Assembly: GCF_002854065.1 (NCBI RefSeq)
Contig: NZ_CP024147.1
DNA: 64,000 nucleotides
Source: Escherichia coli
Lineage (GTDB): Bacteria > Pseudomonadota > Gammaproteobacteria > Enterobacterales > Enterobacteriaceae
Strand: one strand, 5' to 3'
The notes below the pieces were generated by a model, which worked only from the letters and a program-made list of their open reading frames with translations, was not told the DNA's origin and did no database searches. Each line of letters starts with the position of its first letter. Position 1 is the first letter of the stretch. Shown here one piece after another: positions 9,208-9,427 of this stretch. The translations under genes and the position numbers were made by a program.

Positions 9208-9427
9208 CCACTTCATGTCGTTGAACTGCATAATACTGGCCCAAGCACCGCAACCAGTCTTGCTGCGCTTATCGCTTTATGTTCGATATTGCTGGCAAAA
9301 CCAGTACAGGAACAGATGGTGGTGTTGGGCAGTATGACGCTTGGTGGAGTAATTAACCCGGTACGCCCTGCAGCATCCGGAATGCAGCGCCATTATGCGC
9401 ATCATCGACTGAATGGAGAGAAGCACA

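What the first reader, a model, noticed from the sequence alone, without database searches (positions are those of the whole stretch)
9208..9427. Possible gene remnant upstream of the RadC-like gene
The 220 bp between the IS3-family orfB stop and the RadC-like start contain a short frame (…EQMVVLGSMTLGGVINPVRPAASG…) that looks coding. In intact CP4-type islands as I recall them, another gene (yeeR- or antirestriction-like) precedes the RadC-like gene. The IS3-family insertion may have truncated it.
Basis: inference. Interest (0 to 1): 0.2.

Follow-up and report, generated by a model that had tools for sequence, protein, structure and literature searches.

The report
Two gene stubs upstream of RadC-like gene
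The 220 bases before the RadC-like gene are dead leftovers of two genes, a piece of the phage-defence gene brxL and the last 16 codons of an antirestriction gene, left by an IS911 insertion and a later deletion; this is ordinary genome decay.

Summary
Window 9208-9427 is a composite scar in a decayed E. coli genomic island next to dsdC.

- **9208-9215:** the last 8 nt of the IS911 right inverted repeat.
- **9211/9216-9364:** an internal fragment of brxL, the Lon-related BREX type 1 gene. It covers codons 586-636 of 694. It is 100% identical to brxL or its remnants in other E. coli, and the PADLOC BrxL model gives E 3e-13.
- **9362-9412:** the last 16 codons plus stop of the antirestriction gene that normally precedes yeeS. 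It is 100% identical but joined out of frame.
- **9413-9427:** the native 15-nt spacer with GGAGAG before the yeeS ATG at 9428.

"RPAASG" is the antirestriction tail read in the wrong frame.

IS911 cut brxL, not the antirestriction gene. A deletion with 3-nt microhomology (TAC) removed the rest: 3,813 bp relative to strain L9 and 5,306 bp relative to A134_1EC.

The IS911|brxL' junction occurs in 64 of 5,426 complete E. coli genomes. The brxL'|'ard junction occurs only in strain CUWW06, which is nearly identical to the window.

No function is indicated. Interest is low.

The parts
9180..9215 (+). Right terminal inverted repeat of IS911. It ends ...TTGACCACTTCA at 9215, and the orfB stop TGA is at 9205-9207. 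The last 8 nt lie inside the finding's interval.
   Evidence: Homology to thousands of IS911/ISEc52 copies ends at query position 516, which is window 9215. The intact IS911 in L008 ends with the same ...GTTGACCACTTCA.
9211..9364 (+). Internal fragment of brxL (Lon-related protein of BREX type 1), codons 586-636 of 694. It falls within the C-terminal Lon-like (S16) domain. It lacks the N-terminal and ATPase domains and the last 58 codons. Bases 9211-9215 (CTTCA) are shared with the IS911 end, so the true breakpoint lies between 9210/9211 and 9215/9216.
   Evidence: DNA identity is 97.4% to brxL of DP033 (L002 6001-6152) and 100% to 139 genomes. It matches strain L9 up to 9364. PADLOC BrxL gives E 3.3e-13. 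Pfam Lon_C gives E 0.007, below the curated cut-off. BLASTP to BrxL 586-644 gives E 4e-34.
9362..9364 (+). Deletion junction with 3-nt microhomology (TAC), present at both the brxL side and the antirestriction side in undeleted relatives.
   Evidence: Three-way comparison of L007 left flank, window and L007 right flank. The BLAST segments 8656-9364 and 9362-11017 overlap by 3 nt.
9362..9412 (+). 3' stub of the antirestriction gene (Pfam Antirestrict, PF03230 family): the last 16 codons YALQHPECSAIMRIID plus the TGA stop. It sits in a different frame from the brxL fragment (offset by one base).
   Evidence: 100% identity to L003 5001-5051, the end of the antirestriction CDS 4572-5051. Translation. 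tblastn E 2.4e-6. The full-length relative L007 17530-18012 hits PF03230 at E 6.8e-37.
9413..9427 (+). Native 15-nt antirestriction-yeeS intergenic spacer (ATGGAGAGAAGCACA). It carries the GGAGAG ribosome-binding motif for yeeS.
   Evidence: Identical to the spacer between the antirestriction gene and yeeS in L003 (5052-5066). The role of GGAGAG as Shine-Dalgarno sequence is inferred.
9428..9904 (+). Intact RadC-like JAB-domain gene (yeeS-type, 158 aa). It is context for the finding, not part of the remnant.
   Evidence: Pfam RadC E 2.3e-42. Annotated as JAB domain-containing protein in CUWW06 and as yeeS in 2013C-4991.
8300..9215 (+). IS911 right portion: the end of orfA, orfB and IRR. This is the element whose end truncates brxL. 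Its left part is replaced by IS30 (7079-8299) and a different IS3-family orfA (6828-7076).
   Evidence: 99% identity to intact IS911 (L008 884-1816) from about window 7059 onward, and none further left. IS30 inverted repeats at 7074-7104 and 8274-8304.

Best explanation
The interval is inert debris from two successive mutational events in a CP4-type genomic island integrated next to dsdC.

**Event 1 (older, shared).** IS911 became joined by its intact right end to brxL at about codon 586/587. brxL is the last gene of a BREX type 1 phage-defence cargo. Everything upstream of that point in BREX is gone from this locus.

**Event 2 (recent, lineage-specific).** An illegitimate deletion between two TAC trinucleotides joined brxL codon 636 to codon ~144-146 of the antirestriction gene. 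It removed the brxL 3' end, the zinc-ribbon genes, an autotransporter remnant, the DUF932 gene and most of the antirestriction gene. Relative to the surviving relatives this is at least 3.8 to 5.3 kb.

**What is left.** The two stubs are out of frame with each other. The brxL stub has no start codon of its own, and the ard stub is 16 codons long. The native spacer and ribosome-binding site of the RadC-like gene survive, so yeeS, yeeT and the cbeA-like gene remain intact ORFs.

**Shown versus inferred.** The identities, coordinates, junctions, microhomology and population frequencies are shown. The order of events, the mechanism of the deletion (slippage or microhomology-mediated end joining), and the lack of function are inferred.
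For: - **Composite nature.** The DNA match splits at query position 155, with brxL on the left and the antirestriction gene on the right.
- **brxL identity.**
- **Antirestriction tail.** It is 100% identical and in a different frame.
- **IS911 terminus.** It lies exactly at 9215.
- **Undeleted relatives at the same chromosomal site.** L9 (L007) and A134_1EC (L010) carry the same IS911|brxL' junction. In both it is followed by brxL 3' end, zinc ribbon, autotransporter remnant, DUF932, antirestriction gene, yeeS, yeeT, yeeU and dsdC.
- **Collinear flanks.** The window flanks align at 99.7% and 98.6% identity, leaving a 3,813-bp gap (L9) or a 5,306-bp gap (A134_1EC) bounded by TAC.
- **Native context.** brxL is followed by a zinc-ribbon gene in an intact BREX-1 locus (pglX-pglZ-brxL, DP033), so the brxL stub sits in its native downstream context in the relatives.
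- **Frequencies.** The IS911|brxL' junction is in 64 of 5,426 genomes. The brxL'|'ard junction is in 1 of 5,426 (CUWW06).
- **No other remnants.** tblastn with PglZ, DUF932 and zinc-ribbon proteins finds nothing else in the 64 kb.
- **No regulatory signals.** No promoter-like or terminator-like site lies in 9100-9560.
Against: - The direct ancestor of the window lineage is not in the collection, so the exact size and content of the deletion are not known. L9, A134_1EC and Combat11I9 differ from one another in this stretch.
- The left end of IS911 and the upstream part of brxL are missing. A simple insertion therefore cannot be told apart from an IS-mediated adjacent deletion, and no target duplication can be checked.
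- Absence of function is inferred from structure and rarity, not measured.
- The promoter scan only tests 16-18 nt spacers. A TTGACC(9203-9208)-N19-CATAAT(9228-9233) combination exists and was not scored by it.
Confidence: 0.93

Rival explanations
1. One reading: a single gene that normally precedes the RadC-like gene (yeeR-like or antirestriction-like) was truncated by the IS3-family insertion, and the open frame is what remains of it.
For: An antirestriction stub is present at 9362-9412. Antirestriction genes directly precede yeeS in intact islands. An IS3-family end lies at 9215.
Against: The sequence touching the IS is brxL, not the antirestriction gene. The quoted peptide is BrxL residues 617-635. 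The antirestriction stub is separated from the IS by 147-152 bp of brxL, and its truncation point carries TAC microhomology to brxL rather than an IS end. No match to the interval falls under a yeeR annotation.
Confidence: 0.03
2. The scar has acquired a regulatory role. The outward-facing -35 hexamer in the IS911 right end (TTGACC, 9203-9208), together with a -10-like CATAAT in the brxL stub (9228-9233), forms a hybrid promoter. That promoter now drives yeeS-yeeT-cbeA, which lost their native upstream promoter in the deletion.
For: IS3-family right ends carry an outwardly reading -35 motif that forms the junction promoter in minicircles (PMC3219604). TTGACC and CATAAT are visible in the sequence. 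The downstream genes are intact ORFs with the native ribosome-binding site.
Against: The spacer is 19 nt, outside the usual 16-18 nt range. The consensus scan found no promoter-like site in 9100-9560. There are no expression data. The arrangement exists in only one other sequenced genome, so there is no sign of selection.
Confidence: 0.1
3. A new chimeric small protein is made from the open frame (TTG 9289 or ATG 9316 to 9522, 68-77 aa). It would combine a piece of the BrxL Lon-like domain with an out-of-frame tail that overlaps the yeeS start.
For: The frame is open from 9208 to 9522. An in-frame ATG at 9316 is preceded by AGGA (9308-9311).
Against: The tail is frame-shifted antirestriction, spacer and yeeS sequence with no homologue. 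The retained piece is about 50 residues from the middle of a Lon-like domain whose Pfam Lon_C match spans ~175 residues, so it lacks most of that fold. The AGGA spacing of 4 nt is short. No promoter was found. The junction is unique to one lineage.
Confidence: 0.02

Closest known systems
BrxL (Lon-related protein of BREX type 1 systems; Pfam BrxL_N + BrxL_ATPase + Lon_C; PADLOC PDLC02506)
   Same: Bases 9211-9364 are 96-100% identical to E. coli brxL genes and encode residues 586-636 of the C-terminal Lon-like domain.
   Different: Only 51 of 694 codons remain. There is no N-terminal domain, no AAA+ ATPase domain, no start and no stop (one search shows the full-length domain layout). No other BREX gene lies in the window. 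It is a pseudogene fragment, not a BrxL gene.
Antirestriction protein of CP4-type islands (Pfam PF03230 Antirestrict; the YfjX/YafX-type gene that precedes yfjY/ykfG/yeeS. The K-12 gene names are from my own knowledge)
   Same: Bases 9362-9412 are identical to the last 16 codons plus stop. The native 15-nt spacer to yeeS follows, as in 4,385 of 5,426 genomes.
   Different: 143-145 of about 160 codons are missing, so no domain survives. The stub is fused out of frame to brxL.
IS911 (IS3 family) insertional gene truncation
   Same: A complete IS911 right end (...CCACTTCA) abuts the truncated gene.
   Different: The element is itself a wreck. Its left third is replaced by IS30 and by the orfA of another IS3-family element. 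No target-site duplication and no upstream half of brxL can be found. Five nucleotides (CTTCA) are shared between the IS end and brxL.
PGAP pseudogene annotation 'peptidase S16' (ACNHKQ_RS15950) in E. coli CUWW06, NZ_CP182139.1
   Same: The same sequence is already flagged as an S16-peptidase fragment missing both termini.
   Different: The annotation runs from window-equivalent 9211 to 9387. That is about 23 nt past the true junction. It does not recognise the antirestriction stub or the deletion.

Membership tests
BrxL (BREX type 1) | Sequence match to BrxL profiles or genes | tested here: met
   PADLOC BrxL E 3.3e-13 over profile positions 572-622 of 680. 100% DNA identity to annotated brxL genes.
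BrxL (BREX type 1) | Full three-domain architecture (BrxL_N, BrxL ATPase, Lon-like C-terminal domain) in one ORF | tested here: not met
   Only residues 586-636 are present. Full-length DP033 BrxL shows BrxL_N 30-161, ATPase 172-484 and Lon_C 515-689. The domain description is in PMC12707154.
BrxL (BREX type 1) | Genomic association with the other BREX-1 genes (pglZ, pglX and others) | tested here: not met
   tblastn with PglZ finds nothing in the 64-kb window. The 'alkaline phosphatase' fragment at 4828-4950 is PhoX-like, not PglZ.
Antirestriction protein (PF03230) preceding RadC-like genes | Sequence identity to the family and position immediately 5' of yeeS with the native spacer | tested here: met
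   100% identity over 9362-9427 to the 3' end of the antirestriction gene plus the spacer in 2013C-4991. tblastn E 2.4e-6.
Antirestriction protein (PF03230) preceding RadC-like genes | Intact Antirestrict domain (about 92 profile positions) | tested here: not met
   Only 16 residues remain. In the full-length L9 protein the domain covers residues 66-161.
   Every DNA match to the interval falls under brxL/S16 or antirestriction annotations. A DUF932 protein query finds nothing in the window. A yeeR protein itself was not used as a query.
IS911 simple insertion | Both inverted repeats present and a short target-site duplication flanking the element | tested here: not met
   The right end is intact at 9215. 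No left inverted repeat was found, and IS911 homology stops at about 7059. The target duplication therefore cannot be assessed.

The most novel reading that the evidence does not exclude
The juxtaposition of the IS911 right end (outward -35 TTGACC) with the brxL stub may have created a hybrid promoter. That promoter would keep the orphaned yeeS-yeeT-cbeA-like genes expressed after the deletion removed their native upstream region. The scar would then be a functioning IS-derived regulatory element rather than pure debris.
Probability: 0.08. Interest if true: 0.25.

Novelty: already known. Interest (0 to 1): 0.08.

Why it matters
It matters little beyond correct annotation. It shows that this dsdC-adjacent island once carried a BREX type 1 defence system that is now lost. 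It gives a base-exact example of two-step decay: an IS911 truncation followed by a deletion with 3-nt microhomology. It also corrects a public pseudogene annotation that overruns the junction and misses the antirestriction stub. The nested series of relatives (Combat11I9, A134_1EC, L9, then the window) could serve as a small marker set for tracing this island lineage.

Tried and rejected
- **PglZ remnant.** I considered that the 'alkaline phosphatase' pseudogene upstream (4828-4950) might be a PglZ remnant of the same BREX system. Pfam gives a weak PhoX hit instead (E 0.002), and tblastn with PglZ finds nothing.
- **IS911 left end.** I looked for the IS911 left inverted repeat and a target duplication to prove a simple insertion into brxL. 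None exists. The left part is a different IS3-family orfA, joined at an IS30.
- **Promoters and terminators.** A scan of 9100-9560 found none. The N19 hybrid promoter is my own reading of the sequence and does not meet the tool's criteria.
- **Large protein-database searches.** I did not use these, the structure prediction or the metagenome scans. DNA-level identity to annotated E. coli genes already settled what the fragments are.
- **Literature.** I read about BrxL and the IS3-family junction promoter for context only. PMC2909936 contained nothing on promoters.

Full report
**1. What is at 9208-9427**

The sequence lies between the stop of an IS3-family orfB (TGA 9205-9207) and the ATG of a RadC-like gene (9428). 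The other two frames have stops.

**2. It is a composite of two unrelated gene fragments**

A megablast of the 220 bp against 5,426 complete E. coli genomes splits the query at position 155.
- Positions 4-155 hit genes annotated brxL or S16 family serine protease.
- Positions 155-220 hit the 3' end of genes annotated 'antirestriction protein' in 4,385 genomes.
- Only one genome, strain CUWW06 (NZ_CP182139.1), covers the whole query.

The window is 99.8-99.99% identical to CUWW06 over its first 20 kb. It differs by one IS1 insertion with a 9-bp duplication and by small indels.

Base-level alignments give these matches:
- Window 9211-9362 equals brxL of strain DP033 (L002 6001-6152) with 148 of 152 identities. 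This corresponds to codons 586-636 of the 694-codon gene (for the CDS coordinates).
- Window 9362 onward equals L003 5001 onward at 100% identity over the 119 nt compared. This is the last 51 nt of the antirestriction CDS 4572-5051, then the 15-nt spacer, then yeeS.

**3. Identity of the fragments**

The 51-aa translation of 9211-9363 hits the PADLOC BrxL model at E 3.3e-13 (profile positions 572-622 of 680). It hits Pfam Lon_C weakly (E 0.007, below the cut-off). It aligns to BrxL 586-644 with BLASTP E 4e-34.

Full-length DP033 BrxL has BrxL_N, BrxL_ATPase and Lon_C domains. This matches the three-domain description in PMC12707154. The fragment is a small internal piece of the C-terminal Lon-like domain. 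The fragment's DNA is 100% identical to brxL or its remnants in many strains: 139 genomes at ≥99% identity and 405 with any match.

The antirestriction stub translates as YALQHPECSAIMRIID*. This is identical to the C-terminus of the full-length proteins of strains 2013C-4991 and L9. The L9 protein is a Pfam Antirestrict member (E 6.8e-37). A tblastn of that protein against the whole window finds only 9353-9409 (E 2.4e-6).

The two stubs are in different frames. Base 9362 is codon position 2 in the brxL frame and codon position 1 in the antirestriction frame.

**4. The left boundary is the IS911 end**

A query spanning 8700-9260 matches thousands of IS911/ISEc52 copies. Their homology ends at query position 516, which is window 9215. 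An intact IS911 (L008) ends with the same ...GTTGACCACTTCA. The IS terminus is therefore intact and lies at 9215.

brxL identity starts at 9211. The five bases CTTCA are common to the IS end and to brxL, so the breakpoint is ambiguous within 9211-9216.

The element is not a whole IS911.
- Homology to IS911 begins only at about 7059.
- An IS30 (7079-8299; inverted repeats) sits at the join.
- The orfA to its left (6828-7076, HTH_Tnp_1) belongs to another IS3-family element.
- No left inverted repeat was found.

Neither a target duplication nor the upstream part of brxL can be checked. tblastn with PglZ and BrxL finds no other BREX sequence in the 64 kb. The nearby 'alkaline phosphatase' pseudogene is PhoX-like, not PglZ.

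**5. The right boundary of the brxL stub is a microhomology deletion**

The IS911|brxL' junction (query 9146-9285) is present, 100% identical in every record listed, in 64 of 5,426 genomes.

Several of these carry it at the same chromosomal site, next to dsdC-dsdX-dsdA, but with more DNA after it.
- **Strain L9 (L007):** brxL' continues to its natural stop. It is followed by zinc-ribbon genes, an autotransporter remnant, DUF932, the antirestriction gene, yeeS, yeeT, yeeU and dsdC.
- **A134_1EC (L010):** the same, plus an inovirus Gp2-family gene and an Hha gene.
- **Combat11I9 (L009):** retains still more of the island core.

In an intact BREX-1 locus (DP033), brxL is likewise followed by a zinc-ribbon gene. 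The stub in these relatives therefore sits in its native downstream context.

The window aligns to L9 as 8656-9364 = 13446-14154 and 9362-11017 = 17965-19637. The three-way comparison shows TAC on both sides. The gap is 3,813 bp relative to L9 and 5,306 bp relative to A134_1EC.

The direct ancestor is unknown, so the true size may be larger. This junction occurs only in CUWW06 among the complete genomes.

ATCC 8739 and EC6563 carry the same IS911|brxL' module in a different island, next to setC. There the brxL stub is cut after 229 nt, which is an independent endpoint.

**6. How it works**

It most likely does nothing.
- The brxL stub has no start of its own. It sits just downstream of the orfB stop, in the same frame.
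- It keeps only about 50 residues of a Lon-like domain whose Pfam match spans about 175 residues.
- It runs into frame-shifted sequence.
- The ard stub is 16 codons long.
- No promoter-like or terminator-like site is found in 9100-9560.

What the scar preserves is the native spacer with GGAGAG before yeeS. As a result yeeS (RadC, E 2.3e-42), yeeT (DUF987) and a CbeA-family gene remain intact ORFs.

The only non-trivial possibility is a hybrid promoter. It would combine the outward -35 of the IS right end, a known property of IS3-family elements (PMC3219604), with CATAAT at 9228-9233. The spacer is 19 nt and nothing supports its use. I give it about 10%.

**7. Comparison with what is known, and novelty**

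Everything here is of a known kind: an IS-truncated pseudogene and a microhomology deletion in a decaying E. coli island. PGAP already flags the brxL piece in CUWW06 as a 'peptidase S16' pseudogene. That annotation overruns the junction by about 23 nt and misses the antirestriction stub.

The finding is ordinary, and I score interest at 0.08.

Noticed in passing
window 5372-6702: A complete IS2 flanked by a 5-bp direct repeat TTTAC (5367-5371 and 6703-6707). It is absent from the otherwise collinear islands of ATCC 8739, EC6563 and L9, so it is a recent simple insertion in this lineage.
   Followed up: yes
window 6828-9215: The 'IS911' is a chimera. The orfA at 6828-7076 belongs to another IS3-family element, and IS911 homology starts only near 7059. 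An IS30 (7079-8299) sits exactly at the join. No left inverted repeat matching the IS911 right end was found. This suggests an IS30-associated rearrangement between two IS3-family elements.
   Followed up: partly
window 4828-4950: A short fragment annotated 'alkaline phosphatase' in relatives. It gives a weak Pfam PhoX hit (E 0.002) and is not a PglZ/BREX remnant.
   Followed up: partly
window 10262-10654: The CbeA/YeeU-family antitoxin gene loses homology to normal cbeA about 24 nt before its stop (near 10591) and has an aberrant C-terminus. No cbtA toxin gene follows, and dsdC comes next, so the island's right end is truncated inside cbeA. The window also has a 15-nt in-frame deletion near codon 6 relative to CUWW06.
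   Followed up: partly
window 10754-10762: CUWW06 carries an IS1 here with a 9-bp target duplication that the window lacks. This is the main structural difference between the window and its closest sequenced relative.
   Followed up: yes
L004 15001-15229 and L006 14001-14229 (ATCC 8739, EC6563): The same IS911|brxL' module lies in a second chromosomal island, next to setC/yicL. There the brxL stub is cut after 229 nt and joined to other sequence. This is an independent deletion endpoint and shows that the module has moved between paralogous islands.
   Followed up: partly
L001 12004-12180 (CUWW06 ACNHKQ_RS15950), equal to window 9211-9387: The PGAP 'peptidase S16' pseudogene overruns the true brxL/antirestriction junction (9364) by about 23 nt. 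A chance similarity (RPAASGMQ versus QDLAASLQ) extends the protein alignment.
   Followed up: yes
window 961-4458: An intact 1,165-aa autotransporter (Autotransporter beta-domain, autochaperone, PATR and VirG-insertion domains). It lies upstream of the IS cluster and is shared with ATCC 8739 and L9.
   Followed up: no
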